Positions 3,115 through 17,354 of a stretch of DNA of 64,000 nt are shown here, one piece after another (positions within the stretch are counted from its first letter, which is position 1; the number at the start of each line of letters is the position of its first letter). A program made the position numbers and the translations under genes. The stretch is from a virus. Location of the stretch: the IMG/VR virus record IMGVR_UViG_3300045988_062804; one strand, written 5' to 3'. The notes under the pieces were generated by a model that had not been told where the DNA came from, ran no database searches, and was given only the letters and a program-made list of their open reading frames with translations.

Positions 3115-3141
3115 CATTGTATAACTAATCGACAAAGAATT

Positions 3142-3936: not shown

Positions 3937-4181
3937 AAAAAGTATATATTCAAATCATAGACCCTCTTAATGGCACGTGTATAAATGCGTGCCATGAGTA
4001 TCCCAGTGAGTATAATCAAGCTGTGGAAGCTACTCTTAGGTATTATAAGCTCTCTGCCAATGAAGATTATGAGGCTATGAGTGGTACTGGACGTGAACTG
4101 CCTGGAATGCCTGAATATCTACTCATACATGGGTTAGAGAAAGGTACTTCCAAGTTGGTAAATATAACTGTTGTAGGGTAA
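3933..4181 (+). CDS. hypothetical protein (82 aa)
   Basis: ATGA-coupled ORF; no motif recognised. Confidence 0.5.
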   Translation: MKKVYIQIIDPLNGTCINACHEYPSEYNQAVEATLRYYKLSANEDYEAMSGTGRELPGMPEYLLIHGLEKGTSKLVNITVVG

Positions 4182-4594
4182 TTCCTACTGCGAAACACGA
4201 AACTGACCTGATGAGTTAGACTACATAGTGCGCACTATGTAGTGACTTAAACGTGTATAAATAAAAGTTGAAACCTAGTTCATACGAATAAGAAGTGTTC
4301 GCCCACCTTCAAAGTGGGAGGATGAGGTGCAACTCCTCAATGTAATATGTAAGGAGAAAACCCTTACGTCTCTTGTTTAATTCATCTAAATGTGTAACAA
4401 TATTTTGATTAATGGTCAAGCAATACGAGAGTAGGTCGTCAGTTCCATTTCATTATTGACCTTTCACTCAGCTACAAAATCTTTCATTGCCAAGTAGCTG
4501 AGTGATTGTTTTATGAGAATGTTAAAGGATAGATTATGTAGGTGAGACACGCTATATAATTATCTCAATTAATTTATAAATTAAGAGATAAACA

Positions 4595-6397
4595 ATGGAA
4601 TTTAGTAAGAAGAAGAAAAGTCTGTACAAGACTGTATCTCCAACACAAGAGAACAACTTTGTAAAGGAGGGATTGAAGCTGTCAGCCGAGACTGTGAGTG
4701 GAAATGGTGCTAAGAAGTATAGCACTAGTAATGATGCATTTGTGGATAACTTTGCAATGATTGCAAACTTTAAGGCACCTCGTGATTATGCTGAGGTATC
4801 TAAAGATATGTATAAGTTGTGGAGTATTAATCCTAAGAAGTGTCTGCAACTTGCAGTGTATATTAGGTTGATTACTCGTGAGACTCAAATTGTTCTTCCT
4901 GATGAAACTATCACACTGGATGTTCAAAGGGGACAAGGCTTAAAGAATGAAGGTATTATGCGTATGCTATGGTTAGCAATGCATCACAAACCTACATTCA
5001 TGGCTAATATGCCTTACTTCATCGCTGCTGGTAGCTGGAAGGATGTATTTGAAATGATGAGCCTTGATTTACAATATCATGGCTGGGAAGGAAGAAAGTT
5101 GGATTGGAATTTCATGCGTAAGATTATCTTGGCTGGATTAGCTAATGGTCATACAAGTGAATTGGTAAAGAAATACCTTCCGACTATTCGTTCAATGAAA
5201 GAATGTAAAACTGTTGAATCACAAGCTCGTACAATTATCGGTCAGTATCTGGCTTCTTGCATTTATGGTAAGAAGAAGGATAAGGAATCCGATAAAGAGA
5301 CTGCGGATAGCCGTGCTGCACAACGTAGATACAGGAAACTCAAACAGAGTGGAACTGCTCATACTTGGCAGCAATTAATAAGTCAGAAGAAGTTACTCGA
5401 ACTGGACTTCAATACCATTCATGGACGCGCTTTAAGCCTATTAGTAGGCTCTAAGTTCTTGAAAAATCAGGGATTGGTAGAGAAGTATTCCAAGTGGATA
5501 AGTGGTCGCAAAGTGGCTAAATACACTGGATTCGTGTTCGAGTTGTTCCAACCACTTGGTGATAGCTATCGAACCAATAGGCTTGAAGAGTATAGAGAAC
5601 AGACTATCAATGCCCAGTTTAATGGATTAGTTGAGACTGGAAGACAGAATCTCAACCAAAACAGCAAACTATTGGTAGTTAGAGATATATCTGGTTCTAT
5701 GACCTCTAAGGCAGTTGGAACTAATATGTCTTCTTATGCTGTTGGTAAGGCAATGGCATTGTATTTCTCTGCTCTGTTGGATGGTCCATTTAAGGATGCT
5801 TATGCTACATTTAGTAGTACTTGTAAGTTCTGTAAATGGCAAGGTAAGACTCCTATTGAGAAGTGGACTAATGATACTGATGGAAACTTTGGTAATACCA
5901 ATTTATTATCAGTAGCAGATATGTTTGTCAAGCTGAGGGGTACAATGAAGATTTCTGAGAATGAGTTCCCAACAGGAGCATTATTGATTAGTGATGGTGA
6001 GTTCGACTCTGCTCGTAGCTGGAGTGGTAGTGGAGCAAATGTTACTAACTTTGAGGCATTCAGGAAGAAACTACTCAATGGTGGGTTCAGTAAAGAGTAT
6101 GTAGATAACTTTAAGTTAATCCTTTGGGATTTGCCTAATGGTTATTATGGTGGAGGTCTTCGTCCTAAGTTTGAAGACTTTGCAGATGCTCCGAACAATT
6201 TCTACATTAGTGGTTATGACCCTGCTGCTGTAGCATTCATCTTGGGAACTAAACCATTTAAGGCTACACCTAAGAACGCAACAGAGTTGTTCAATGCAGC
6301 TATGGACCAGGAACTATTGAATAGACTGGTTATCTCTGAACGAAAGGTATTCAACAAGTCTAAGAAGAATATAAACTCTAAAAGTAATAAGAAATAA
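4595..6397 (+). CDS. vWA/MIDAS protein with large N-terminal helical domain (DUF2828-like; possibly Ro60/TROVE-like)
   Basis: MIDAS motif LLVVRDISGSMTS at about aa 360, preceded by ~350 aa of helical sequence. This is the same domain order as Ro60/Rsr. The family name is recalled from memory, not searched. Confidence 0.6.
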   Translation: MEFSKKKKSLYKTVSPTQENNFVKEGLKLSAETVSGNGAKKYSTSNDAFVDNFAMIANFKAPRDYAEVSKDMYKLWSINPKKCLQLAVYIRLITRETQIVLPDETITLDVQRGQGLKNEGIMRMLWLAMHHKPTFMANMPYFIAAGSWKDVFEMMSLDLQYHGWEGRKLDWNFMRKIILAGLANGHTSELVKKYLPTIRSMKECKTVESQARTIIGQYLASCIYGKKKDKESDKETADSRAAQRRYRKLKQSGTAHTWQQLISQKKLLELDFNTIHGRALSLLVGSKFLKNQGLVEKYSKWISGRKVAKYTGFVFELFQPLGDSYRTNRLEEYREQTINAQFNGLVETGRQNLNQNSKLLVVRDISGSMTSKAVGTNMSSYAVGKAMALYFSALLDGPFKDAYATFSSTCKFCKWQGKTPIEKWTNDTDGNFGNTNLLSVADMFVKLRGTMKISENEFPTGALLISDGEFDSARSWSGSGANVTNFEAFRKKLLNGGFSKEYVDNFKLILWDLPNGYYGGGLRPKFEDFADAPNNFYISGYDPAAVAFILGTKPFKATPKNATELFNAAMDQELLNRLVISERKVFNKSKKNINSKSNKK

Positions 6398-7191: not shown

Positions 7192-7335
7192 AAAATAAAA
7201 TGTTGACTAAAGCTTTAGCTTCAGCCTCAGCGTTACTAAATCCTAGATATTTAGCATAAGCATTGAGTCAAGAGCTTTAGCTTTAGCCTTAACGTGAGAA
7301 ACCAGTAGCTGTAAAATGATAATTGATAATAATTA

Positions 7336-7545
7336 TTATTAAATCTGACCATTCACGGGTTCGAATCCCGTGCGCGCCTCTAACATAATCCTTTGTTTAC
7401 AAGGTGGGATAGAAGCATAAGAACCAACATATTAGATGAGCAGTATTGCAAGTAAGCAGCAATCAATATGACTCTTATGTGTATGATTCCCACCTTCTTT
7501 TAACATGGCGCGCTGGTGAAGTGGATTAACACGTCAGACTAATAA
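7336..7545 (+). ncRNA. permuted tRNA-like module U1
   Basis: 7344-7378: TCTGAC-cattc-ACGGG-TTCGAAT-CCCGT-GCGCGCC. A 128-nt insert follows, closed by AAGGTGGGA/TCCCACCTT. 7507-7545: GGCGCGC-TG-GTGAAGTGGATTAACAC-GTCAGA-CTAATAA. The anticodon-type stem GTCAGA/TCTGAC and the outer helix TTATTA/TAATAA both pair. Confidence 0.55.
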
Positions 7546-7618
7546 AACAGCATTAGCGTGAAACTACTGAACGTTATCTCACAACTAGGGACTATCATCG
7601 AGGAGTTTTGAGTTAGTC
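7537..7618 (+). ncRNA. possible ACAGCA-box element (weak member)
   Basis: GACTAA-taaa-ACAGCA ... TTAGTC; only a 6-bp closing helix. Confidence 0.25.
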
Positions 7619-7621
7619 CTT

Positions 7622-7696
7622 AGGGGGTTAGCTTAATGGTTAAAGCACAAGAACGTTTAATTCTTGGGAGTGGAGGTTCGATTCCTCCACCCTCTG
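7622..7696 (+). tRNA. tRNA-like with atypical anticodon arm (Lys-UUU-like)
   Basis: Acceptor AGGGGGT/ACCCTCT, D-arm GCTT/AAGC, T-arm GGAGG-TTCGATT-CCTCC. The anticodon arm is CAAGA-ACGTTTAAT-TCTTG, i.e. a 9-nt loop, or a 6-bp stem with loop CGTTTAA lacking U33. Confidence 0.5.
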
Positions 7697-7733
7697 CTTT
7701 TTGATAGGTTAATAATAATGAACTCATAATCAA

Positions 7734-7761
7734 AACTACTTGTCTGTGAAGATAGGTAGTT
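7734..7761 (+). repeat. conserved GNRA-capped hairpin (copy a)
   Basis: AACTACTT-GTCT-GTGA-AGAT-AGGTAGTT, a 12-bp stem with a GUGA tetraloop, 5 nt upstream of the tRNA-like gene at 7766. Confidence 0.6.
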
Positions 7762-7765
7762 ATAC

Positions 7766-7857
7766 AGAGGGATGCGCAAATGGTAAAGCGGCAATCGATG
7801 GATTGTAGTACAGTGTTCTAGGCGTGTACATTGAAGGTTCGATTCCTTTTCCCTCTA
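7766..7857 (+). tRNA. tRNA-like RNA (92 nt) lacking a 7-nt anticodon loop
   Basis: Acceptor AGAGGGA/TCCCTCT, D-arm CGC-AAATGGTAAA-GCG, T-arm GAAGG-TTCGATT-CCTTT. The anticodon position is CAATC-GATG-GATTG (a tetraloop), followed by an extra arm GTACA...TGTAC. Confidence 0.4.
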
Positions 7858-7888
7858 CAATTCTTTGTAATAAATTACATTTGTCAGC

Positions 7889-7916
7889 AGTTGTTGGTCT
7901 GTGAAGATAGACAACT
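7889..7916 (+). repeat. conserved GNRA-capped hairpin (copy b)
   Basis: AGTTGTT-g-GTCT-GTGA-AGAT-a-GACAACT. Confidence 0.55.
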
Positions 7917-7996
7917 ATAAGCAGAGCATTAAAATTTAAGCAACAAGATGGGATATCGTAATATATTTAATTGTTACAAAATTTAACATTATTCAC

Positions 7997-8027
7997 TTTG
8001 TAGAGTCTAAAGATTGCACTATCTTTG
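7997..8027 (+). promoter_or_regulatory. Bacteroidota-type promoter (-33 TTTG / -7 TAnnTTTG)
   Basis: TTTG at 7997-8000 and TATCTTTG at 8020-8027, about 60 nt upstream of tRNA-Tyr. Confidence 0.5.
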
Positions 8028-8086
8028 TACTCAGAAACGTTGAGAGAACGTGATTGTGTTTGTGTTTTATTTATCCCATTGTTGAG

Positions 8087-8170
8087 GGGAGTGCGCCACA
8101 GTTGGAGAGGTGGGGCGGACTGTAAATTCGCTGCCTTCGGGCTGAGTAGGTTCGAATCCTACCACTCCCA
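8087..8170 (+). tRNA. tRNA-Tyr(GTA)
   Basis: Acceptor GGGAGTG/CACTCCC, loop CTGTAAA, long variable arm TGCCTTCGGGCTGA, T-arm GTAGG-TTCGAAT-CCTAC. Confidence 0.85.
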
Positions 8171-8208
8171 CAACAATATCTGCTAAAGTCAAGTGCTTTG
8201 GTAAAGAG

Positions 8209-8234
8209 TATGCTCGTCTGTGAAGATGGGCATA
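8209..8234 (+). repeat. conserved GNRA-capped hairpin (copy c)
   Basis: TATGCTC-GTCT-GTGA-AGAT-GGGCATA, 10 nt upstream of tRNA-Gly. Confidence 0.6.
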
Positions 8235-8243
8235 TTTCGTCTT

Positions 8244-8315
8244 GCAGGATTAGTACAATGGTTAGTATGTCAGACTTCCAATCTGAATATGAGAGTTCGA
8301 TTCTCTTATCCTGCT
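8244..8315 (+). tRNA. tRNA-Gly(TCC)
   Basis: Acceptor GCAGGAT/ATCCTGC, stem TCAGA/TCTGA, loop CTTCCAA, T-arm GAGAG-TTCGATT-CTCTT. Confidence 0.85.
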
Positions 8316-8322
8316 CAAATTT

Positions 8323-8396
8323 GCGGGTATAGCTCAATCGGCTAGAGTACCACCTTGCCAAGGTGGAAGTTGTGGGTTCGAATCCCATTACTCGCT
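8323..8396 (+). tRNA. tRNA-Gly(GCC)
   Basis: Acceptor GCGGGTA/TACTCGC, stem CCACC/GGTGG, loop TTGCCAA. Confidence 0.85.
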
Positions 8397-8404
8397 CTTC
8401 TTAT

Positions 8405-8477
8405 GGGCTGATAGTGATAACGGCAAGCACTTCTGCTTTGCACGCAGAGAGTCTGGGTTCGAATCCCAGTCGGTCCA
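8405..8477 (+). tRNA. tRNA-Ala(TGC)
   Basis: Acceptor GGGCTGA/TCGGTCC with G3:U70, loop TTTGCAC, T-arm CTGGG-TTCGAAT-CCCAG. Confidence 0.85.
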
Positions 8478-8488
8478 CTATTTATAAT

Positions 8489-8560
8489 GGTGCATTGGTC
8501 TAATGGTCAGGATACTAGACTGTCTATCTTGGGGTACGAGTTCGATTCTCGTATGCACCG
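8489..8560 (+). tRNA. tRNA-Asp(GTC)
   Basis: Acceptor GGTGCAT/ATGCACC, loop CTGTCTA (one mismatch in the anticodon stem), T-arm ACGAG-TTCGATT-CTCGT. Confidence 0.7.
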
Positions 8561-8817
8561 CATTCTTCCCCAATCTTCCAAAGGGTGAGACGGAAGCGTT
8601 TTGTTGAGGGCATCACGATAGAGAGACCTTAGTATCATGCTAACTTGAAAGCATGGAGAGCATTCGCTAATACGCTCTCGAAAAGATTATTAGTGGAGGT
8701 TAGGTGAACGCTAGCAAAGTAGCCTAATGACAGGAATTTGTAGCATAACAGATGGAAACCAAAGAAGTGAGGATTGAAGTCTTCCTTATGTCTAACTAAA
8801 TTCCTTTTATTTAACAT

Positions 8818-8903
8818 CGCGGATTAGAGAAGTGGTCTATCTCGCCAGTCTCATAAGCTGGAACACTCATAAGGTGTCGCAAGTTCGAATCTTGCATCCG
8901 CAA
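8818..8903 (+). tRNA. class-II-shaped tRNA with CAT anticodon (Met/Ile2-type loop, long extra arm)
   Basis: Acceptor CGCGGAT/ATCCGCA (C1:A72 mismatch), long D-loop, stem CCAGT/GCTGG, loop CTCATAA. Extra arm ACAC-TCATAAG-GTGT, T-arm GCAAG-TTCGAAT-CTTGC. Confidence 0.6.
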
Positions 8904-8918
8904 CTAACTTAATGTATT

Positions 8919-9095
8919 ATGGAAGAGAAATTAGACTTAATTATTCAAAAGTTAGATGAGTTGCTTATATTAGCAAGACGTATTCATAAAGATACAGAGC
9001 CATCTATTGAGAATAATGCATCTGAATATCTTCTAAATGTATTAGGTGATGTTACTGGTGATGTCTTAATGCAAGGCTTAACTGGTAATAGATAA
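8919..9095 (+). CDS. small hypothetical protein (58 aa)
   Basis: ATG ORF MEEKLDLIIQKLDELLILARR... between two tRNAs; below the 60-aa cut-off of the ORF track. Confidence 0.35.
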   Translation: MEEKLDLIIQKLDELLILARRIHKDTEPSIENNASEYLLNVLGDVTGDVLMQGLTGNR

Positions 9096-9103
9096 GAACA
9101 ACG

Positions 9104-9177
<74 letters not shown>

Positions 9178-9266
9178 CTATTACACCAGGCAATGCTAAG
9201 TGGAATACACTTAGGACTGTTGTAGTTACGATAGAGTATGAGGGGTGAAACTCATAACTCACTATA

Positions 9267-9333
9267 AGAAAGCATACAGCAAATCTATTCAAGCATCAAA
9301 CTTTTAATTTGACACCGCTAAGAACTGCTTTCT
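9267..9333 (+). ncRNA. ACAGCAA-box element (small type)
   Basis: AGAAAGCA-T-ACAGCAA ... TGCTTTCT (8-bp terminal helix). Confidence 0.5.
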
Positions 9334-9340
9334 GTTTAAT

Positions 9341-9412
9341 AGGCACATCTTCTAATGGTCAGGAAGCTACCCTGATAAGGTAGTAATCCCAGTTCAATTC
9401 TGGGTGTGCCTA
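9341..9412 (+). tRNA. tRNA-Ile(GAT)
   Basis: Acceptor AGGCACA/TGTGCCT, stem CTACC/GGTAG, loop CTGATAA, T-arm CCCAG-TTCAATT-CTGGG. Confidence 0.85.
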
Positions 9413-9414
9413 CA

Positions 9415-9951
9415 ATGATTACTAATGATACTAAGCTCAAGGTTATACAACTCAAACAATCTGGAATGACCTACAGTCAAATCTCTGAACAGTTAGGGAT
9501 TTCTAAAGGTAGTATATCTACTATAGTAAAGGAGGCAGGCTTAGGAGTAAGTAAACCTGTTGAAATTACCGAGGAGTTGTTAGGTAAGATTCAAGAAAGA
9601 TATAATGAGATTGGTAATATCAAAAAGGTAGCCGAGGAATTTCATATCTCTTATAGACGGCTAGCTAAAATAAAGTCTTTCAGTAGAAAGACAAAGAGTA
9701 ATTATGAATGTGTAAAAGATAGTAGAGTTAGGAAGAAACTAGTACTTGTAGAGTACAAAGGAGGTAAGTGTGAAAGATGTGGGTACAGCAAATGCATTCA
9801 TGCACTGGAGTTCCATCACCTTAACCCTTTGGAGAAAGACTTTAATATTTCTAGTTCCTCTAAACCTATAGAAGAACTAAAGAAGGAAGTTGATAAATGC
9901 CAACTTCTCTGTGCAAACTGTCATAGGGAAGTCCATCAAGAAATAACGTGA
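9415..9951 (+). CDS. HNH homing-type endonuclease with N-terminal HTH
   Basis: GGKCERCGY...LEFHHLNP...DKCQLLCANCHREVH. Start set to the ATG at 9415, because 9406 lies inside tRNA-Ile. Confidence 0.8.
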   Translation: MITNDTKLKVIQLKQSGMTYSQISEQLGISKGSISTIVKEAGLGVSKPVEITEELLGKIQERYNEIGNIKKVAEEFHISYRRLAKIKSFSRKTKSNYECVKDSRVRKKLVLVEYKGGKCERCGYSKCIHALEFHHLNPLEKDFNISSSSKPIEELKKEVDKCQLLCANCHREVHQEIT

Positions 9952-9956
9952 TTTTA

Positions 9957-10026
9957 AGAAGTCTAACAGCAAATTACCAATCCAATATTTGATTTCCAAT
10001 TCAAATTAATGATTATAAAGACTTCT
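9957..10026 (+). ncRNA. ACAGCAA-box element (small type)
   Basis: AGAAGTCT-A-ACAGCAA ... AGACTTCT. Confidence 0.5.
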
Positions 10027-10032
10027 GTCTAT

Positions 10033-10106
10033 AGTCCCTTAGCTCAGCTGGTAAGAGTATCTGGCTTACATCCAGAGGGTCGTAGGTTCGAACCCTACAG
10101 GGACTA
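10033..10106 (+). tRNA. tRNA-Val(TAC)
   Basis: Acceptor AGTCCCT/AGGGACT, stem TCTGG/CCAGA, loop CTTACAT. Confidence 0.85.
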
Positions 10107-10113
10107 CAGTAAT

Positions 10114-10197
10114 GTATGGTTAGCCAAGCGGTCGACGGCAATAGGCTGTTAACCTATCTGAGAAATCACACCGCAGGTTCGAATCCTGCACCATACG
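10114..10197 (+). tRNA. tRNA with GTT anticodon and 15-nt variable region (Asn-type loop on a class-II-like body)
   Basis: Acceptor GTATGGT/ACCATAC, D-arm GCC-AAGCGGTCGAC-GGC, stem ATAGG/CCTAT, loop CTGTTAA, then CTGAGAAATCACACC before T-arm GCAGG-TTCGAAT-CCTGC. Confidence 0.6.
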
Positions 10198-10202
10198 CAA
10201 CT

Positions 10203-10276
10203 GGGTGGTTAGCTTTAATGGTTAGAGCATTGGACTGTTAATCCAAGGGTTGTCGGTTCGAGTCCGACACTGCCCT
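10203..10276 (+). tRNA. tRNA-Asn(GTT)
   Basis: Acceptor GGGTGGT/ACTGCCC, stem TTGGA/TCCAA, loop CTGTTAA. Confidence 0.85.
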
Positions 10277-10361
10277 CAACCTAGCGAGGTTTCACGTACT
10301 AATAATATGTGCACAAAAGAGAACTTCCATGTAGGCTTGTTGTGAAACAGGTCTACTATAT

Positions 10362-10433
10362 GCGTCGGTGGCATGACTGGGAAGCAACGCTCTCCAAAAG
10401 CGTGATATGGGGGTTCGAATCCCTCACGGCGTG
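10362..10433 (+). tRNA. tRNA-Trp(CCA)
   Basis: Stem ACGCT/AGCGT, loop CTCCAAA, T-arm GGGGG-TTCGAAT-CCCTC, acceptor GCGTCGG/ACGGCGT (one mismatch). Confidence 0.75.
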
Positions 10434-10453
10434 CAAGCGATTAGTTATCAATA

Positions 10454-10526
10454 AGAAGACTTCAGCAAACAATTTTAATCAAACATCTGTACCATTTATC
10501 ACGGATATGATAACAAACAGTCTTCT
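10454..10526 (+). ncRNA. ACAGCAA-box element (small type, box variant TCAGCAA)
   Basis: AGAAGACT-TCAGCAA ... AGTCTTCT. Confidence 0.5.
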
Positions 10527-10532
10527 GTAAAT

Positions 10533-10606
10533 TGGGAGGTAGGACAATAGGCTAGTCTACTACATTTGGGATGTAGAGGTTGCGAGTTCGAATCTCGTCC
10601 TCCCAA
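10533..10606 (+). tRNA. tRNA-Pro(TGG)
   Basis: Acceptor TGGGAGG/CCTCCCA, stem CTACA/TGTAG, loop TTTGGGA. Confidence 0.85.
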
Positions 10607-10629
10607 CACATTTATGGTTAAGTTAAATA

Positions 10630-10781
10630 AGAATACTTACAGCAAACAACTAAGCAATTCAAACAAACAGTAAATTTGTCTTAAACGTAGGTTCGATTCC
10701 TGCCCTTCCCACCATTGTGTGACTATTTAAATGGGAAGGTTGAAATGTTGGGTAGTCCGAAAGGGCGAAAAGAAGTATTCT
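10630..10781 (+). ncRNA. permuted tRNA-like module U2 with ACAGCAA box
   Basis: AGAATACTT-ACAGCAA ... GTAGG-TTCGATT-CCTGC-CCTTCCC-A-CCA, an 18-nt loop, then GGGAAGG ... GTCC-GAAA-GGGC ... AAGTATTCT. The D-arm is degenerate. Confidence 0.5.
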
Positions 10782-10784
10782 GAT

Positions 10785-10868
10785 TTAATTAAATAGTAGC
10801 CAGACACACGTTCAAAAGATAATTTTTATCCAGAGAGAGAAATGGTGATAAAGCTACTATTTAATTAA
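10785..10868 (+). repeat. 16-bp perfect inverted repeat (long hairpin)
   Basis: TTAATTAAATAGTAGC (10785-10800) pairs with GCTACTATTTAATTAA (10853-10868); 52-nt loop. Confidence 0.7.
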
Positions 10869-10874
10869 TTAAAT

Positions 10875-10947
10875 GGGGAGGTAGCATAATTGGCTAATGC
10901 ACCGCATTTGCACTGCGGATTATTGGGTTCGAGTCCCACCTGCTCCA
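10875..10947 (+). tRNA. tRNA-Ala(TGC)
   Basis: Acceptor GGGGAGG/CTGCTCC with G3:U70 and an A5:G68 mismatch, stem CCGCA/TGCGG, loop TTTGCAC. Confidence 0.75.
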
Positions 10948-11034
10948 CGAATCTTTAAGATTCACACTTCAACAACTCTTTGTTCAAATTAGACCCAGAT
11001 AGAGAAACATAAATGCACGTAAAGTAGTGTTTAT

Positions 11035-11105
11035 GTAGGGTTGCCCGAGCGGTTAGGGGCTGGTCTGCAAAACCAGTTAGAACGGTTCGATTCCGTTACC
11101 CTACT
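11035..11105 (+). tRNA. tRNA-Cys(GCA)
   Basis: Acceptor GTAGGGT/ACCCTAC, stem CTGGT/ACCAG, loop CTGCAAA. Confidence 0.85.
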
Positions 11106-11125
11106 CTATTTTGAGTTTAACAACA

Positions 11126-11245
11126 AGAAACCTTACAGCAATACCTATTCAGCTTTGTAAGCCGTAGGTCATGGGTTCAAGTCCCATAGGTGGATACGTC
11201 CATCTTAGCTCAGTTGGATAGAGCAACGTATTTAAAATGGTTTCT
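11126..11245 (+). ncRNA. permuted tRNA-like module U3 with ACAGCAA box
   Basis: AGAAACC-TT-ACAGCAA ... ATGGG-TTCAAGT-CCCAT-AGGTGGA-tacg-TCCATCT-TA-GCTC-AGTTGGATA-GAGC-A-ACGTA-TTTAAAA ... GGTTTCT. The acceptor is closed by a UACG tetraloop. Confidence 0.6.
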
Positions 11246-11285
11246 GAACCCACATCTATTGTTAATACAGTAATGTGGGTTATTT

Positions 11286-11358
11286 CACCCTATAGCTTAA
11301 TTGGCAAAGCCTTGCACTTTTAATGCAGAGAGTCCGAGTTCGAGTCTCGGTGGGGTGA
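11286..11358 (+). tRNA. tRNA-Lys(TTT)
   Basis: Acceptor CACCCTA/TGGGGTG, stem TTGCA/TGCAG, loop CTTTTAA. Confidence 0.85.
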
Positions 11359-11392
11359 CAAAGGTGCTCATAACACCTCCTTTCCTACTGTA

Positions 11393-11609
11393 AGAGGACA
11401 TACAGCAAAGTATTTCTAACACTACTATTGATTTGACGGTTGCCTTCCGAAGTATTCCCGTAAGGGTGCAGGTAAGGCTAGAGTAGGACGCTTGAAGTAA
11501 ATGTACTATGCTATGAGAATTAGCCCTGACTATGCTAGGTTAAAGTATAGTGTCTAATCATTCTAAATTGGGAGAGTGAAAGACATTAAATGTAAAACCC
11601 TTGTCCTCT
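11393..11609 (+). ncRNA. ACAGCAA-box element (217 nt, no tRNA-like part)
   Basis: AGAGGACA-T-ACAGCAA ... TGTCCTCT. Interior hairpins include CCC-GTAA-GGG. Confidence 0.5.
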
Positions 11610-11704
11610 GTTAAACCTATCCATCGAATTTCCGTATCTGGAGTTTTGGATAGGTTTATTTAACTAACAAGATTGACATATTTATTCAGTAACACTATCT
11701 TATT

Positions 11705-11809
11705 ATGAAGGCAATTAGACTGATTAAGAAGGCTGTTAAGTGGTATCTTGATAGGACTGCAAATTCCTACATTTACCCTACTGGAACTTTCCCTATTATA
11801 AAGGAGTAA
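11705..11809 (+). CDS. possible micro-ORF (34 aa)
   Basis: MKAIRLIKKAVKWYLDRTANSYIYPTGTFPIIKE. A TTGACA-N17-TATCTT-like box lies upstream; weak. Confidence 0.2.
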   Translation: MKAIRLIKKAVKWYLDRTANSYIYPTGTFPIIKE

Positions 11810-11851
11810 GTTCCTATGCTGCTGAGGTGAATATGTAAATCAATAACTTAT

Positions 11852-11943
11852 GGAAGAGTAAGCCTAATTGGTAAGGCAGTAGTCTTGAAAACTACCAGTA
11901 ATCGTGTAAAAGCGATGTCTCGGTTCGAGTCCGAGTTCTTCCT
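11852..11943 (+). tRNA. tRNA-Ser(TGA)
   Basis: Acceptor GGAAGAG/TTCTTCC, stem GTAGT/ACTAC, loop CTTGAAA, long variable arm. Confidence 0.85.
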
Positions 11944-11965
11944 CAATTATTAATAACAAAGTATT

Positions 11966-12277
11966 ATGACAGGAAGATTTAGACCAGTTAACAAGATTAG
12001 TAGACACAAGATGTCCTTATTATGGGACAGAGCATTAGTGTATTTCTATAAGGAACACGCTGTGGTTAGAGCCGTACAAGATGGCTTTACTGATGATAAC
12101 AACCAAACATTATTAAAGAGATTTCAGTATCTTGAATCACTTATAATGAATGGGCGCTTTAAGAAGATGCCTCGTAAAATGAAGAAGGCATTTATAAGAG
12201 AACTATCAGCAAGGTATAACCTTTGCTTGATTGTATTACAACATTGGGATGATTTTAAAGCATTAGAAACAACATGA
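11966..12277 (+). CDS. hypothetical protein (103 aa)
   Basis: ORF directly after tRNA-Ser; basic. Confidence 0.5.
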   Translation: MTGRFRPVNKISRHKMSLLWDRALVYFYKEHAVVRAVQDGFTDDNNQTLLKRFQYLESLIMNGRFKKMPRKMKKAFIRELSARYNLCLIVLQHWDDFKALETT

Positions 12278-12429
12278 TAGAATCAATTATAGCAGACATA
12301 GTATTTGATTGGACTTTCCTTAACCCTTTAATTGAAAGAGACGATGGAAAGAAAGAATCAAATGAAGTGGACGAATCCACGCAACAAGTATTGGCGCAGG
12401 CAGAAATTGGTCCAGAAGTATATTACTAG
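12274..12429 (+). CDS. possible small acidic protein (51 aa)
   Basis: ATGA-coupled to the upstream stop; partly overlaps 12344..12604 in another frame, so one of the two may be spurious. Confidence 0.3.
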   Translation: MIESIIADIVFDWTFLNPLIERDDGKKESNEVDESTQQVLAQAEIGPEVYY

Positions 12430-12604
12430 ATTAAAGAAGTTTCCTGCTAGTAATTATGGATTATGGTGTGATAACTATAATCAACACTGGACATTACCTT
12501 ATAAATCAACAAGTACTCCATGTAGTTGTTGGTTATGTAAGGGAGAACGATATAACAGACGAGGGTTTAAAAAGGAAACTAGACTTGAAATAGAAATGTT
12601 TTAA
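12344..12604 (+). CDS. hypothetical basic W/R-rich protein
   Basis: ATG at 12344 (the ORF track starts at TTG 12332); KWTNPRNKYWRRQKLVQKYITRLKK. Confidence 0.45.
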   Translation: MERKNQMKWTNPRNKYWRRQKLVQKYITRLKKFPASNYGLWCDNYNQHWTLPYKSTSTPCSCWLCKGERYNRRGFKKETRLEIEMF

Positions 12605-12619
12605 GTTATTTAATTTATA

Positions 12620-12761
12620 AGAAGTCTTACAGCAATAACATTAGCAATTCGATTCTGGTTCGACTAGCCTGGGTTCGAATCCCAGCAACCTCCCAATTAT
12701 TAGTACTATATGGAGGTTGTAGTGTAGCGGATAGCACAGTATATGCAAACAAATGACTTCT
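12620..12761 (+). ncRNA. permuted tRNA-like module U5 with ACAGCAA box
   Basis: AGAAGTC-TT-ACAGCAA ... CTGGG-TTCGAAT-CCCAG-CAACCTC, a 20-nt loop, then GAGGTTG-TA-GTGT-AGCGGATA-GCAC ... GACTTCT. Confidence 0.6.
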
Positions 12762-12767
12762 GGTGAT

Positions 12768-12839
12768 GCCTCAATAGCTCAACGGATAGAGCGTCGGTCT
12801 TCTAAACCGAACATCTAGGTTCGATTCCTAGTTGGGGTA
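12768..12839 (+). tRNA. tRNA-Arg(TCT)
   Basis: Acceptor GCCTCAA/TTGGGGT, stem TCGGT/ACCGA, loop CTTCTAA. Confidence 0.8.
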
Positions 12840-13062
12840 CTAACTTGGCAAGGTTGGGATTAATCAGACCCAAGTACCCAATTCCATACACCGAAAGGTT
12901 AAAATGGGGAAGTGGTTCTAAGTATGGATAGTTAATGGTTAATCCTTTTAGCATTAGACTAAGGTTGTGGTAGGGGTAGTGCCTTATGTGGATGAGGTCG
13001 TACCTTATTGGTGATGCATCACTAATCATAAATGGAAGTGGGTACGAGTGTAGGTCTAACAT

Positions 13063-13135
13063 GGTGTTTATAGTTCAACGGTTAGAATAACTGATTGTGG
13101 TTCAGTAGATGTGGTTTCGACTACCACTAAACACC
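13063..13135 (+). tRNA. tRNA-His(GTG)
   Basis: Encoded G-1 opposite C73, acceptor GTGTTTA/TAAACAC, stem ACTGA/TCAGT, loop TTGTGGT. Confidence 0.85.
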
Positions 13136-13233
13136 CTTATGGCAGTAGGTTTTTTTAAAATAAAATCTTCCTGTTTGTTTACTATTGCCTTAACGTGGTT
13201 TAGAAGGATTGCACGAAAATAAATCCTTCCTCT

Positions 13234-13305
13234 GGGGCGGTAGCTCAATGGTAGAGCGCAGGTCTGAAGAGCCTGGCGTTGGAGGTTCGATTCCTCCTCG
13301 CCCCA
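13234..13305 (+). tRNA. tRNA-Phe(GAA)
   Basis: Acceptor GGGGCGG/TCGCCCC, stem CAGGT/GCCTG, loop CTGAAGA. Confidence 0.85.
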
Positions 13306-13320
13306 CGTCGATTAGTAGAC

Positions 13321-13447
13321 GAGAACTAACAGCAATTCTAAAGTTTTGCATTCCAAGCAGTGGGTCTGAGGTTCGAGTCCTCACGTTAGCTTAGGCTAAT
13401 GTAGCTCAGTGGTTTAGAGCAACAGCGTTAAAACAAAGATGGTTCTC
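13321..13447 (+). ncRNA. permuted tRNA-like module U7 with ACAGCAA box
   Basis: GAGAAC-TA-ACAGCAA ... GCAGT-gggtc-TGAGG-TTCGAGT-CCTCA-CGTTAGC-ttag-GCTAATG-TA-GCTC-AGTGGTTTA-GAGC-A-ACAGC-GTTAAAA ... GTTCTC. Confidence 0.6.
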
Positions 13448-13486
13448 AGCTGTTTTACAGAGTTACAGGTTAAAGAAACTCTGTAT

Positions 13487-13574
13487 GGAGAGTTGGGTGA
13501 GTGGTCTATACCAGAGTCCTGCTAAGACTCCGAACCCCAAAAGGGTTCCGCTGGTTCGAATCCAGCACTCTCCG
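13487..13574 (+). tRNA. tRNA-Ser(GCT)
   Basis: Acceptor GGAGAGT/ACTCTCC, stem GAGTC/GACTC, loop CTGCTAA, long variable arm. Confidence 0.85.
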
Positions 13575-13612
13575 CAAGTATATTTGGAATTTTTGTATAA
13601 TAATGATTAATT

Positions 13613-13951
13613 ATGATTACTATGACAAAGATTCAGCCTATAAATCCTAATGAAATAATCAGTGAGAAAGTAAAGGTCATACCAGACCAAGTTATTAGGG
13701 TTTTTAATGAACTGATTGCAAGAAACTGGAACAACGACAAGTCAATAGTGTTTACTAATGAAGCTGTTGAGTTTATAAAGTTTCTGACTGGTGCCAGTAA
13801 GGATACTATCATACAAAACCATTGGTTAGATGTAGAGCCTCTCTACAGAGATAATGGATATGAAGTAACTTACCATGAGTCCCAGGGTAATGAATCCTTC
13901 CCCTCATATTATGAGTTTAGGAAGAAGTCTCTAAATGCTGGGTTCGAATAA
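13613..13951 (+). CDS. hypothetical protein (112 aa)
   Basis: ATG ORF; its last 15 nt overlap tRNA-Glu(TTC). Confidence 0.5.
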   Translation: MITMTKIQPINPNEIISEKVKVIPDQVIRVFNELIARNWNNDKSIVFTNEAVEFIKFLTGASKDTIIQNHWLDVEPLYRDNGYEVTYHESQGNESFPSYYEFRKKSLNAGFE

Positions 13952-14008
13952 CGGCTAGTTCCTCACACTTTCGATGTGAAGATAGGGGTTCGATTCCCCT
14001 ACCCAGTA
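13937..14008 (+). tRNA. tRNA-Glu(TTC)
   Basis: Acceptor GCTGGGT/ACCCAGT, D-arm GAAT/GTTC, stem TCACA/TGTGA, loop CTTTCGA, T-arm AGGGG-TTCGATT-CCCCT. Confidence 0.8.
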
Positions 14009-14191
14009 CCTTGTAGTCCTCCTTAATCCTTAATAGGATAGTTAGGCTACACTGTGAACGAACAGAGGAGAGGAGTTCACACGTTGGCTAGCAACGTAGT
14101 ACACAATGGTGGGATAGGAACGGCTAGCACCCACCTTAACTGTTCTTATAATACTAGTTAAATTCCGACGGGGAGTTAGAACAGTTAAAAT

Positions 14192-14263
14192 ACTCCTATC
14201 TACTAATGGTTAGGTAATCGGTCTCTCAAGCCGAAAATACGGGTTCGAATCCCGTTGGGAGTA
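14192..14263 (+). tRNA. tRNA-Glu(CTC)
   Basis: Acceptor ACTCCTA/TGGGAGT, stem TCGGT/GCCGA, loop CTCTCAA. Confidence 0.8.
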
Positions 14264-14302
14264 CGCGATAATGGGTTCCATTATTAGCAATCATCTTAAT
14301 AG

Positions 14303-14330
14303 AACTACCCGTTCGTGAGAATAGGTAGTT
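14303..14330 (+). repeat. conserved GNRA-capped hairpin (copy d, covarying variant)
   Basis: AACTACC-c-GTTC-GTGA-GAAT-a-GGTAGTT, upstream of tRNA-Asp. Confidence 0.55.
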
Positions 14331-14334
14331 AATC

Positions 14335-14404
14335 GAGGGCGTAGTGTAATGGTTAGCACGCCTCCCTGTCACGGAGGTAGAGGGGTTCGAATCCCACGTT
14401 CTCG
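14335..14404 (+). tRNA. tRNA-Asp(GTC), shortened T-stem
   Basis: Acceptor GAGGGCG/CGTTCTC, stem CCTCC/GGAGG, loop CTGTCAC. The T-stem seems 1 nt short. Confidence 0.65.
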
Positions 14405-14433
14405 GCTAAACATAGTAAAAATCACTTATTACA

Positions 14434-14573
14434 AGAAGACTTACAGCAAACCAATTCTAAAATTCAATCGGTAAAATGAAAGACGTAGGGTTCGAATCCC
14501 TACCTATACCGCCAAAGTCCTGATGGGTATAGTCGTCTAGTGGTAGGATGTATTAGAAACAGGCTAGTCTTCT
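14434..14573 (+). ncRNA. permuted tRNA-like module U10 with ACAGCAA box
   Basis: AGAAGACT-T-ACAGCAA ... GTAGGG-TTCGAAT-CCCTAC-CTATACC, a 15-nt loop, then GGTATAG-TC-GTC-TAGTGGTAG-GAT ... AGTCTTCT. Confidence 0.6.
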
Positions 14574-14603
14574 GAGCGTACATCTAAGTATGTACGCTAA
14601 TTC

Positions 14604-17259: not shown

Positions 17260-17354
17260 AAACGACATACAGCAAGCAATCATACTGACTTTCAAATAGT
17301 AAAACCCTCTGCTGCCCATTGCGGAGGTTAAAGAGTTGAATGGGAATGTCGTTT
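17260..17354 (+). ncRNA. ACAGCAA-box element with internal pseudoknot candidate
   Basis: AAACGACAT-ACAGCAA ... ATGTCGTTT (9 bp). Hairpin CCTCTGC-tgCCCATTg-GCGGAGG, whose loop can pair with AATGGG at 17340-17345. Confidence 0.5.

What the first reader, a model, noticed from the sequence alone, without database searches (positions are those of the whole stretch)
7336..14573. Six circularly permuted tRNA-like modules with a loop-closed acceptor stem
Six loci share one gene order: 7336-7545, 10630-10781, 11126-11245, 12620-12761, 13321-13447 and 14434-14573. In each, a canonical T-arm (..GG-TTCGAnT-CC..) comes first, followed by a 7-nt 3' acceptor strand. Its perfectly complementary 5' acceptor strand lies 4-128 nt DOWNSTREAM, followed by a tRNA-like linker and D-arm with GG (degenerate in U2). 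Example: ATGGG-TTCAAGT-CCCAT-AGGTGGA-tacg-TCCATCT-TA-GCTC-AGTTGGATA-GAGC. In two loci the acceptor is capped by a tetraloop (tacg, ttag), so there are no free acceptor ends. One locus even keeps CCTTCCC-A-CCA. The anticodon side is open, and the outermost 5' and 3' ends pair over 6-9 bp. In four loci the D-arm is followed by a 5-nt stem strand and a heptamer with U33/A37-like spacing (CTAATAA, TTTAAAA, GTTAAAA, ATGCAAA).

I see two readings. (a) They are YrlA-type Y-RNA tRNA mimics, which have a tRNA-like module and are known from bacteria and phages that encode Ro60 orthologues; that their acceptor is loop-closed is recalled from memory. (b) They are genuinely permuted or split tRNA genes, of the kind known from the red alga Cyanidioschyzon and from Nanoarchaeum, that would need end-joining. 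I am not aware of either being described as a multi-copy family in a Bacteroidota phage tRNA island.
Basis: partly seen in the sequence, partly recalled or inferred. Interest (0 to 1): 0.9.

Follow-up and report, generated by a model that had tools for sequence, protein, structure and literature searches.

The report
Phage Y-RNA-like tRNA mimics beside Ro60-like gene
The six "inside-out tRNA" modules are real, conserved structured RNAs that most likely act as Y-RNA-type tRNA mimics partnering a divergent Ro60-like protein encoded just upstream; they are not split tRNA genes, and they belong to a larger family of at least eleven small RNAs that has apparently not been described.

Summary
Observation confirmed. 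All six loci have, on the + strand, a T-arm, then a 7-8 bp acceptor-like stem closed by a loop of 4-128 nt, then a D-arm.

They are conserved in about 30 related phage contigs. 22 of 26 base pairs show compensatory changes, and the tRNA 15:48 Levitt pair covaries.

This topology is that of YrlA Y RNAs, described in the literature as circularly permuted tRNAs with closed acceptor stems.

The ORF at 4595-6397 (Pfam DUF2828/DUF7788) lies 0.9 kb upstream of U1. It has an intact MIDAS motif, and its AlphaFold model matches full-length Ro60/Rsr above every other solved structure.

Five of the modules, plus five elements without a tRNA-like body, share a "handle": a covarying 7-9 bp terminal helix followed by an invariant ACAGCAA.

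The same handle arrays sit beside DUF2828 genes in distant phages, including the cultured Enterococcus phage EFDG1 and Leptolyngbya phage Lbo-JY46.

They fail formal YrlA membership: 37 bits against a gathering score of 69, and no GNCGAA motif. The permuted-tRNA reading is not supported.

Verdict: a new variant of the Ro60/Y-RNA kind. RNA-protein binding and function are inferred, not shown.

The parts
4595..6397 (+). Gene for a 600-aa Ro60-like protein (Pfam DUF7788, with a weak DUF2828 match): an N-terminal helical domain and a C-terminal vWA domain with a MIDAS motif.
   Evidence: Pfam and PHROG 850 'RNA-binding protein'. [quoted passage not shown] In a profile search of PDB sequences the best hits are Ro60. 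The AF2 model has pLDDT 85.5. The top 8 Foldseek PDB hits are all full-length Ro60/Rsr. BFVD also returns a 'Ro-like RNA binding protein' of Gordonia phage VanLee.
7294..7585 (+). U1: a permuted tRNA-like RNA with its own three-helix closure. Outer helices are GUGAGA/UCUCAC and CCAGUAG/CUACUG. The anticodon-like stem is 7344-7349/7533-7538, the T-arm 7355-7371 and the acceptor stem 7372-7378/7507-7513 with a 128-nt insert. The D-arm is about 7516-7532. There is no ACAGCAA handle.
   Evidence: (z = -3.95). Orthologues in 25 loci have acceptor-loop inserts of 18-131 nt and covarying T, acceptor and anticodon-like stems.
9267..9333 (+). S0: a handle-only element (AGAAAGCA-UACAGCAAA...UGCUUUCU-G), 7 nt upstream of tRNA-Ile.
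9957..10026 (+). S1: a handle-only element, 6 nt upstream of tRNA-Val.
   Evidence: (R1 18.7 bits, handle part only).
10454..10526 (+). S2: a handle-only element (motif variant UCAGCAAA), 6 nt upstream of tRNA-Pro.
10630..10782 (+). U2: handle plus a tRNA-like module with a degenerate D-arm. The 7-bp acceptor stem is followed by an encoded discriminator and CCA (10711-14).
   Evidence: NCCA is kept in 10 of 13 distinct orthologues, and the loop insert varies from 20 to 83 nt. There are only weak partial hits to permuted-tmRNA models.
11126..11246 (+). U3: handle plus the most canonical tRNA-like module (UACG-capped acceptor stem, UA linker, GCUC/GAGC D-arm).
   Evidence: Rfam YrlA 37.1 bits, model positions 1-114. 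R1 133.9 bits. Orthologues reach to phages whose protein is 43-46% identical, and to Enterococcus phage EFDG1.
11393..11609 (+). L1: a 217-nt element with the same handle but an insert that is not tRNA-like.
   Evidence: fold z = -1.2, so the internal structure is not established.
12620..12762 (+). U4: handle plus tRNA-like module (8-bp acceptor stem, 18-nt loop), 5 nt upstream of tRNA-Arg.
   Evidence: (R1 40.1 bits).
13320..13449 (+). U5: handle plus tRNA-like module (UUAG-capped acceptor stem), 13 nt after tRNA-Phe.
   Evidence: YrlA 28.6 bits; R1 61.4 bits.
14433..14575 (+). U6: handle plus tRNA-like module (15-nt acceptor loop; D-stem with G-U pairs).
17261..17353 (+). S3: a handle element (AACGACAU-ACAGCAAG...AUGUCGUU-UG), 8 nt upstream of tRNA-Gln.

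Best explanation
The six loci encode small non-coding RNAs of the Y-RNA type. Each has an effector module that folds like a tRNA whose acceptor end is closed by a loop and whose anticodon side is open.

In five of them (U2-U6) the open side leads into a shared handle: a 7-9 bp helix formed by the RNA's 5' and 3' ends, with an invariant single-stranded (U/A)ACAGCAA on the 5' strand. U1 has a different three-helix closure of YrlA-like layout.

I propose the following, all of it inferred rather than shown:
- The handle is the docking site for the Ro60-like ring protein encoded at 4595-6397.
- The tRNA-like head recruits or occupies a tRNA-binding partner, such as host PNPase, RNase P/Z, the CCA-adding enzyme, modification enzymes or an RNA ligase. 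Alternatively it gates the ring.
- The phage thereby gains a set of RNPs for surveillance, repair or degradation of structured RNA, plausibly its own 34-tRNA/tmRNA output or damaged tRNAs.
- The RNAs are probably released from polycistronic tRNA transcripts by the tRNA-processing enzymes, because they lie 5-39 nt from flanking tRNAs.
- U2, with a 7-bp stem and an encoded NCCA, may in addition be cut in its acceptor loop, as M. smegmatis YrlA is.

Shown here: the structure, its conservation and covariation, the fold of the protein, and the gene-RNA linkage across distant phages.

Inferred: expression, RNA-protein binding, the effector and the biological role.
For: (1) tRNA-like permuted fold.
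- The descriptor scan finds only these six loci.
- On 42 distinct sequences 96.6% of cells pair and 22 of 26 pairs show compensatory change. All 7 acceptor pairs, 6 of 7 handle pairs and 4 of 5 T-stem pairs covary. Slid controls give 35-46%.
- U8 and A14 are invariant in every family except U2, and the Levitt pair switches between G15:C48 and A15:U48.
- After rotation, ARAGORN recognises 4 of 6 as tRNA bodies.

(2) Same topology as YrlA.
- The Rfam YrlA model aligns over positions 1-114 with U3.
- The literature describes YrlA as a permuted tRNA with a closed acceptor stem (10.1101/312249; PMC4201824).

(3) Ro60-like partner gene.
- MIDAS residues are invariant.
- In a profile search of the PDB the best hits are Ro60.
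- The top 8 Foldseek hits are full-length Ro60/Rsr, E 5e-8 to 1e-4; below them come only isolated vWA domains.

(4) Linkage across distant genomes.
- Handle/ACAGCAA elements, some with tRNA-like heads, are clustered within about 1 kb of DUF2828 genes in L029 and L030 (protein 43-46% identical), L032, L033 and L031, which has no tRNA at all.
- Leptolyngbya phage Lbo-JY46 has five tandem elements directly after the gene.
- Enterococcus phage EFDG1 has three elements upstream of a gene only 24% identical. Two carry tRNA-like heads that keep GCCGUAGGUC and AACGUAU as in U3.

(5) The handle also occurs on elements without a tRNA body. It is therefore a separate, shared module, as the Ro-binding stem of Y RNAs is.

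(6) Phage Ro60 with adjacent Y-like RNAs has precedent (PMC4201824; PMC12135203).
Against: - There is no expression or binding data.
- The modules score far below the Rfam YrlA gathering threshold.
- They lack the GNCGAAN0-1G/CGAA motif by which Ro60-binding stems are recognised.
- The protein is not a Pfam TROVE member, and its structural match to Ro60 is moderate (TM 0.41-0.51, rmsd about 10 A).
- Only U1 lies within the 4-kb window used to define YrlA genes; U2-U6 lie 4-8 kb downstream, among tRNAs.
- Alignment A4 was fitted to the model's structure and mixes orthologues with paralogues, so the pair counts lean towards the structure.
- No PNPase or RtcB gene was found among the 20 ORFs of the window that were scanned against Pfam.
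Confidence: 0.75

Rival explanations
1. They are genuinely permuted or split tRNA genes. The 3' half is transcribed before the 5' half, the ends are joined (circularised) at the terminal helix, and RNase P/Z then open the acceptor loop to give a decoding tRNA.
For: The 3' half does precede the 5' half. After rotation, ARAGORN in intron mode calls U1, U3, U4 and U5 as tRNAs. U2 keeps an encoded NCCA in 10 of 13 distinct orthologues. The acceptor stems are 7 bp, the length preferred by RNase P (PMC4201824). A ligase-family gene lies at 58814-60019.
Against: - Rejoining would leave 37-90 nt in the anticodon loop.
- The junction is a continuous 7-9 bp helix, not a bulge-helix-bulge, and no splicing endonuclease was seen.
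- The putative 7-nt anticodon loops change length and sequence among orthologues (UUUAAAA, UUAAAA, UUAAAAA, AAAACGA).
- Two acceptor stems are capped by tetraloops.
- tRNAs for all 20 amino acids are already present.
- The same handle carries inserts that are not tRNA-like.
- The elements track a Ro60-like gene even where there are no tRNAs (L031).
Confidence: 0.03
2. They are cis-acting structured spacers or processing elements of the polycistronic tRNA transcripts. They would be folding insulators or guides for RNase P, Z or E, built from tRNA-derived sequence, with no functional tie to the Ro60-like protein.
For: Ten of the eleven elements lie 5-39 nt from a flanking tRNA on at least one side (the exception, L1, is 33 nt from tRNA-Lys), and four of the five elements without a tRNA-like body end 6-8 nt before the next tRNA. 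All are on the tRNA strand. tRNA-like heads would attract the processing enzymes.
Against: Handle arrays occur next to the DUF2828 gene in loci with no adjacent tRNAs: L031; L032 7841-8649; Lbo-JY46 6860-7200. The invariant ACAGCAA, kept from cyanophage to Enterococcus phage while the helix sequence is free to vary, points to a conserved trans-acting reader. The two roles are not mutually exclusive.
Confidence: 0.1
3. They are free-standing tRNA decoys. They would soak up host tRNA-targeting defence nucleases, or tRNA-modifying or CCA-adding enzymes, through the tRNA elbow, independently of the Ro60-like protein.
For: The elbow nucleotides are intact (G18G19, the UUCRANU T-loop, the Levitt pair). 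The copies are multiple and divergent. They sit in a tRNA island of the kind often linked to counter-defence.
Against: They lack anticodon loops, which are the target of most known anticodon nucleases. The idea does not explain the conserved handle, the handle-only elements, or the linkage to the DUF2828 gene.
Confidence: 0.08
4. They are decaying debris of tRNA gene rearrangements: recombination between tandem tRNAs that joined the 3' half of one to the 5' half of the next.
For: Tandem tRNAs can mimic the pattern. The YrlA model and R1 both give spurious hits across the tRNA-Asn/Asn junction at 10135-10259.
Against: The two acceptor strands of each module are complementary to each other. Compensatory changes are kept in every helix across phages whose protein is 43-99% identical. 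The terminal helix and ACAGCAA are conserved as well.
Confidence: 0.01

Closest known systems
YrlA (Y RNA-like A; Rfam RF02553) of Salmonella, Mycobacterium and 22 phages, partner of Rsr/Ro60
   Same: The order is T-arm, loop-closed acceptor-like stem, UA linker, D-arm. The tRNA tertiary nucleotides and Levitt-pair covariation are present. The 5' and 3' ends pair into a stem. The RNAs are encoded on the same strand as, and near, a ring-plus-vWA protein. More than one Y RNA per locus occurs.
   Different: - Scores are 28-43 bits against a gathering score of 69.
- There is no GNCGAAN0-1G motif; an invariant ACAGCAA follows a single 7-9 bp helix instead.
- The partner protein is DUF2828/DUF7788, not Pfam TROVE.
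- There are at least 11 elements per genome, against an average of about 1.3 YrlA per genome in the 2014 census (355 in 276 genomes; PMC4201824).
- The elements are interleaved with tRNA genes.
- The handle is also used by elements without a tRNA-like head.
Mycobacterium smegmatis YrlA (cleaved by RNase P in the acceptor loop, then CCA added; PMC4201824)
   Same: The acceptor stem is 7 bp. U2 even encodes discriminator plus CCA directly after the 3' strand.
   Different: Cleavage is untested here. U3 and U5 have tetraloop caps that leave no room for a leader.
Thermus phage phiLo phiRo60 with Yrl1/Yrl2 (PMC12135203), and D. radiodurans Rsr-Yrn1-PNPase (RYPER)
   Same: A phage-encoded Ro60-type ring sits beside adjacent small RNAs. 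The model is of a Y RNA tethering the ring to a host effector.
   Different: phiRo60 is a bona fide TROVE protein, and its Yrl RNAs were recognised by a CGAA motif. There are two RNAs, not an array, and no tRNA island.
Permuted tRNA genes of Cyanidioschyzon merolae and split tRNAs of Nanoarchaeum
   Same: The 3' half is encoded upstream of the 5' half, and the acceptor strands are linked by a short intervening sequence.
   Different: Those yield decoding tRNAs by way of a BHB motif, a splicing endonuclease and a ligase. Here there is no BHB, no conserved anticodon loop, a long handle in its place, and a bacterial-virus setting.
Two-piece (circularly permuted) tmRNA genes
   Same: U2 has T-arm, 3' acceptor strand, NCCA, spacer, 5' acceptor strand and a degenerate D-arm. 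It gives weak partial hits to the beta_tmRNA and tmRNA_permuted models.
   Different: It is only about 150 nt, with no tag reading frame or pseudoknots and no G3:U70. A standard tmRNA gene is present at 2615-3117.

Membership tests
YrlA (Rfam RF02553 / Chen et al. 2014) | Effector module in the order T stem-loop, closed acceptor-like stem-loop, D stem-loop, with tRNA-type conserved nucleotides and a Levitt pair | tested here: met
   U2 has a degenerate D-arm.
YrlA (Rfam RF02553 / Chen et al. 2014) | 5' and 3' ends pair to form the Ro-binding stem | tested here: met
   The terminal helix covaries at 6 of 7 pairs. That it binds the protein was not tested.
YrlA (Rfam RF02553 / Chen et al. 2014) | Conserved GNCGAAN0-1G on the 5' strand of that stem | tested here: not met
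   Absent from all 11 elements. ACAGCAA stands in its place.
YrlA (Rfam RF02553 / Chen et al. 2014) | Score at or above the curated gathering threshold (69 bits) | tested here: not met
   Window: 37.1 and 28.6 bits. L019: 39.6 and 34.2 bits. EFDG1: 43.2 and 34.2 bits.
YrlA (Rfam RF02553 / Chen et al. 2014) | Encoded within about 4 kb of a Ro60/Rsr (TROVE) gene | tested here: inconclusive
   U1 begins 0.9 kb after a Ro60-like gene, while U2-U6 lie 4-8 kb downstream. The protein is Ro60-like by fold but has no Pfam TROVE match. In distant phages the elements lie within 1 kb of the gene.
YrlA (Rfam RF02553 / Chen et al. 2014) | Bound and stabilised by Ro60; modified by TruB and DusA | not testable with these tools
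   This needs RIP and modification mapping.
Ro60/Rsr proteins (TROVE + vWA) | Ring of alpha-helical repeats capped by a C-terminal vWA domain with a MIDAS motif | tested here: met
   AF2 model with pLDDT 85.5 and pTM 0.86. The top 8 PDB hits are full-length Ro60/Rsr. DxSxS, T and D are conserved. Closure of the ring was not examined.
Ro60/Rsr proteins (TROVE + vWA) | Sequence membership of Pfam TROVE | tested here: not met
   Only DUF7788, plus DUF2828 below its cut-off. The profile-to-PDB match to Ro60 is E = 0.002 and covers the vWA part only.
Permuted tRNA genes (C. merolae type) | 3' half upstream of 5' half, with the acceptor strands joined by an intervening sequence | tested here: met
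Permuted tRNA genes (C. merolae type) | After rejoining, a canonical anticodon stem and a conserved 7-nt loop | tested here: not met
   ARAGORN finds 0 of 6 without an intron, and 4 of 6 only with 37-90 nt 'introns'. Loop length is not conserved in orthologues.
Permuted tRNA genes (C. merolae type) | Bulge-helix-bulge at the junction, and a splicing endonuclease and ligase pathway | tested here: not met
   The junction is a continuous 7-9 bp helix. No endonuclease turned up among the 20 ORFs scanned against Pfam, which is not an exhaustive search.
Two-piece tmRNA | Tag reading frame and pseudoknots between the 5' acceptor strand and the T-arm; curated score | tested here: not met
   U2 is 153 nt. 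It scores 24.1 bits (gathering score 84) and 20.3 bits (gathering score 47).

The most novel reading that the evidence does not exclude
DUF2828/DUF7788 proteins are found in 187 records of the phage collection searched, including FelixO1-like, Schiekvirus, Campylobacter, Vibrio and jumbo phages, and in giant viruses. They may be a second, unrecognised branch of Ro60-like rings with their own class of Y RNAs.

These RNAs would be arrays of small RNAs sharing a 'helix + ACAGCAA' handle that displays interchangeable heads: tRNA mimics, simple hairpins and larger folds. In the phage of this window the array has grown to at least 11 copies woven into the tRNA operons.

The system would then be a modular RNP toolkit in which one protein is addressed to different partners by different heads. 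One head (U2) might be opened to a free CCA end.
Probability: 0.55. Interest if true: 0.78.

Novelty: new variant of a known kind. Interest (0 to 1): 0.62.

Why it matters
Ro60 and Y RNAs are a conserved but poorly understood RNA-surveillance system, and the role of YrlA's tRNA mimicry is still unknown.

This locus would do three things:
- It would tie a large family of 'unknown function' phage proteins (DUF2828/DUF7788, often annotated only as 'RNA-binding protein') to Ro60 biology.
- It would define a new RNA handle that current Rfam models miss.
- It shows natural experiments in which one handle carries many different heads, next to tRNA clusters or RNA ligase genes.

The same elements are present in cultured, genetically tractable phages (Enterococcus phage EFDG1, Leptolyngbya phage Lbo-JY46). 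Binding, effectors and phenotype are therefore directly testable.

Tried and rejected
- Megablast of the island against GenBank phages found only short tRNA matches to crAss-like phages and no homologous island.
- Single-sequence phmmer of the protein against the PDB found nothing. A profile and a structure prediction were needed.
- Single-sequence MFE folding gave weak z-scores (-0.6 to -2.5) and often missed the D-arm. It was not decisive either way.
- MAFFT misaligned the distant orthologues. I switched to a covariance model (R1) and its structural alignment, accepting the bias that brings.
- R1 found nothing in Lbo-JY46, because those elements mostly lack the tRNA-like head. They were found by reading the gap and by a handle scan.
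- Literature searches for DUF2828, RAGATH-34, TROVE with crAss, and permuted tRNA with phage found no description of this system.
- The sigma-70 promoter scan is not above background: 27 sites against 19.8 +/- 4.0.
- DUF7873 (6400-7191) was considered as a conserved partner, but it is absent from the distant loci.
- No RtcB or PNPase was found among the 20 ORFs of the window that I scanned against Pfam.
- Identity with tmRNA (U2) was considered and rejected, as was tandem-tRNA junction artefact: the spurious YrlA/R1 hits at 10135-10259 and 8290-8349 are exactly such junctions.

Full report
**1. What is there**

The window carries a phage tRNA island. ARAGORN finds 34 tRNAs covering all 20 amino acids. 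Rfam adds a tmRNA at 2615-3117 and a RAGATH-34 RNA at 4179-4281.

None of the six loci overlaps an ordinary tRNA.

I wrote a descriptor for a T-arm, a 7-nt strand, and its full complement 3-200 nt downstream, and masked it for ARAGORN tRNAs. It returns exactly these six loci on the + strand and none on the - strand, plus one A/T-rich junk hit.

In five loci the 5' acceptor strand is followed by a 2-nt linker and a D-arm with G18G19. U2's D-arm is degenerate.

**2. They are real structured RNAs**

Using the neighbouring protein as bait, I fetched 30 related viral contigs, mostly 175-190 kb long, whose protein is 43-99% identical.

Orthologous modules are present in nearly all of them, with compensatory substitutions.
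- The U3 acceptor stem AGGUGGA/UCCAUCU becomes AGUAGGA/UCCUAUU, AAGUGGG/CCCAUUU, AAUGAAG/CUUCAUU, CUCUAUA/UAUAGAG, CUUUGGU/ACCAAAG and CCUCAUC/GGUGAGG.
- The T-stems change in step: AUGGG, AUUGG, AUGAG, GAAGG, AUCAG.

A covariance model built from U3 orthologues (R1) finds 60 matches at E < 1e-5 in the window and loci. The counts on the 42 distinct sequences are:
- 96.6% of cells form standard pairs, against 35-46% when the 3' partners are slid by 1-3 columns.
- 22 of 26 pairs change on both sides.
- All 7 acceptor pairs, 6 of 7 terminal-helix pairs and 4 of 5 T-stem pairs covary.

This alignment was fitted to the model's structure and mixes orthologues with paralogues, so the figures lean towards the structure. 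The margin is very large all the same.

U8 and A14 are invariant in every family except U2, and position 15 covaries with position 48 (G:C, A:U, and U:A once). This is the tRNA Levitt pair.

When the permutation is undone in silico, ARAGORN in intron mode recognises 4 of 6 as tRNA bodies. Without introns it recognises none.

**3.

(a) *A shared handle.* Five of the six modules (U2-U6) share a terminal handle, and so do five elements with no tRNA-like body.
- The handle is a helix of 7-9 bp, consensus AGAAGNCU/AGNCUUCU, whose sequence covaries.
- It is followed on the 5' strand by an invariant (U/A)ACAGCAA, and on the 3' strand by G or UG.
- The extra elements lie at 9267-9333, 9957-10026, 10454-10526, 11393-11609 and 17261-17353 (mononucleotide shuffles give 0-7 matches, median 2, spread over 64 kb).

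U1 instead has two outer helices, GUGAGA/UCUCAC and CCAGUAG/CUACUG, separated by an asymmetric internal loop, plus a 6-bp anticodon-like stem. This three-helix layout is like that of the YrlA consensus.

Ten of the eleven elements lie 5-39 nt from a flanking tRNA on at least one side.

(b) *A Ro60-like gene.* The ORF at 4595-6397, which ends 0.9 kb before U1, is a DUF7788 protein with a weak DUF2828 match. It also matches PHROG 850, 'RNA-binding protein'.
- In 78 diverse homologues D364xS366xS368 is invariant and T435 and D467 are nearly so. Together they make up a vWA MIDAS motif.
- A profile of those homologues finds Ro60 as its best PDB sequence hits, at E = 0.002. A phage TROVE protein scores E = 0.68.
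- An AlphaFold model (pLDDT 85.5, pTM 0.86) matches Xenopus and human Ro60 and Deinococcus Rsr over 530-620 columns. These are the top eight PDB hits, with E from 5e-8 to 1e-4 and TM 0.41-0.51. Every lower hit is an isolated vWA domain.
- In BFVD the model matches DUF7788/DUF2828 proteins of phages and giant viruses, and a 'Ro-like RNA binding protein' of Gordonia phage VanLee.

**4. Linkage of RNA and protein beyond this phage**

| Genome | Protein identity | Elements near the gene |
|---|---|---|
| L029 | 46% | U3-type module with the same handle, immediately upstream |
| L030 | 43% | modules upstream, and about 260 nt downstream |
| L031 (no tRNA in 9 kb) | 46% | 4-5 tandem handle elements fill the gap upstream, one with a T-arm and closed stem |
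| L032 | 45% | six tandem elements downstream, two with full tRNA-like heads |
| Leptolyngbya phage Lbo-JY46 (cultured) | 44% | five tandem elements in the unannotated 390-nt gap right after the gene |
| Enterococcus phage EFDG1 (cultured) | 24% | three elements in the gap upstream |

Two of the EFDG1 elements have tRNA-like heads that keep GCCGUAGGUC before the T-arm and AACGUAU after the D-arm, exactly as in U3.

In other phages the DUF2828 gene abuts the tRNA cluster (Citrobacter phage Moogle) or an RNA ligase gene (Cronobacter phage GAP32).

**5. Comparison with what is known**

- They occur near Rsr in more than 250 bacteria and 22 phages.
- M. smegmatis YrlA, which has a 7-bp stem, is cut by RNase P and receives CCA (PMC4201824).
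- A phage Ro60 with two adjacent Y-like RNAs has been characterised structurally (PMC12135203).

The Rfam YrlA model aligns end to end with U3, but only at 37.1 bits against a gathering score of 69. It gives 28.6 bits for U5, and 34-43 bits in L019 and EFDG1.

The YrlA Ro-binding motif GNCGAAN0-1G is absent from all 11 elements.

These RNAs therefore work like YrlA in architecture and genomic setting. They are not members of the curated family, and their protein partner is not a TROVE-family member by sequence.

I found no paper that links DUF2828 to Ro60 or to Y RNAs.

**6. The rival reading: true permuted tRNA genes**

- Rejoining would leave 37-90 nt in the anticodon loop.
- The would-be loops differ in length among orthologues.
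- The junction is a plain helix, not a bulge-helix-bulge.
- The tRNA set is already complete.
- The handle also carries inserts that are not tRNA-like.

I rate this reading at about 3%.

A cis-acting role as processing spacers in the tRNA operons is compatible with the tight spacing. It does not explain the arrays beside DUF2828 genes that have no tRNAs nearby. The two roles may coexist.

**7. Mechanism proposed**

All of this is inferred.
- The RNAs are cut out of the tRNA transcripts by RNase P and RNase Z or E.
- The handle docks on the Ro60-like ring.
- The tRNA-like head engages a tRNA-binding partner or gates the ring.
- The result is RNPs for surveillance, repair or degradation of structured RNA during infection.
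- U2, which keeps an encoded NCCA in 10 of 13 distinct orthologues, may be opened to a free CCA end.

**8. Verdict**

| Question | Answer |
|---|---|
| Observation | confirmed |
| Reading (a) | supported in kind |
| Reading (b) | rejected |
| Novelty | new variant of the Ro60/Y-RNA kind: new handle, new protein branch, unusually large array interleaved with tRNAs |
| Confidence that these are conserved tRNA-like structured RNAs | about 0.97 |
| Confidence that they are partners of the Ro60-like protein | about 0.75 |
| Interest | 0.62 |

The host phylum was not tested. The only hint is tRNA similarity to crAss-like phages.

Noticed in passing
window 2615-3117: A phage-encoded tmRNA (Rfam 93.3 bits). 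It spans 503 nt against a 374-position model, so it probably carries an insertion. The ORF at 3073-3936 (ParB-like by PHROG) overlaps its 3' end.
   Followed up: no
window 4179-4281: A RAGATH-34 RNA (73.9 bits, above its gathering score) lies about 300 nt upstream of the Ro60-like gene. The alignment contains a CUGAUGA...GAAAC core reminiscent of hammerhead ribozymes. It is followed at 4289-4363 by a T-arm-like GAGGUGCAACUCCUC, which gives a weak Tymo_tRNA-like hit. A similar GGGUGCAACUCCC precedes the module in L030.
   Followed up: partly
window 7735-7762, 7890-7920, 8209-8236 (possibly also 14300-14330): A recurrent hairpin whose loop holds the exact 11-mer UCUGUGAAGAU. There are three exact copies, all on the + strand, between tRNAs in the first part of the island. 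The stems differ in sequence.
   Followed up: partly
window 7766-7858: An odd 93-nt tRNA-like gene that ARAGORN calls tRNA-??? with a 2-nt anticodon (Rfam tRNA-Sec, only 23 bits). Its 5' acceptor strand is also complementary to the 3' acceptor strand of the preceding tRNA-Lys.
   Followed up: no
window 11393-11609: A 217-nt element with the ACAGCAA handle but an insert that is not tRNA-like. Its fold is not significant on its own (z = -1.2). Conservation in relatives was not checked.
   Followed up: partly
window 9406-9951 and 19428-20024: HNH homing-endonuclease ORFs (the first with an N-terminal HTH) are inserted among the tRNA genes.
   Followed up: no
window 16138-17244 and 27753-30236: The phage carries an adenylosuccinate synthetase-like gene and a full-length P-type cation-transporting ATPase. 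Both are unusual auxiliary genes for a phage.
   Followed up: no
L001, L005, L013, L019, L023 (related loci): The repertoire differs between close relatives.
- In L001 (protein 99% identical) no U2 or U5 was found.
- L019 has an extra module at 16662-16709.
- The U2 acceptor loop holds an insert of about 80 nt in L005, L013 and L023.
- The U1 insert ranges from 18 to 131 nt.
   Followed up: partly
L036 3330-3900 (Enterococcus phage EFDG1, KP339049): Each of the three handle elements is preceded by a conserved hairpin, AGUUCC...GGAACAUAA. A good sigma-70-like promoter (TTGACA-17-TATTAT) lies upstream of the first element. This suggests a dedicated transcription unit.
   Followed up: no
window 6400-7191: A DUF7873 protein is encoded between the Ro60-like gene and U1. 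It is not found next to the DUF2828 gene in the distant loci, so it is probably not a core partner.
   Followed up: partly
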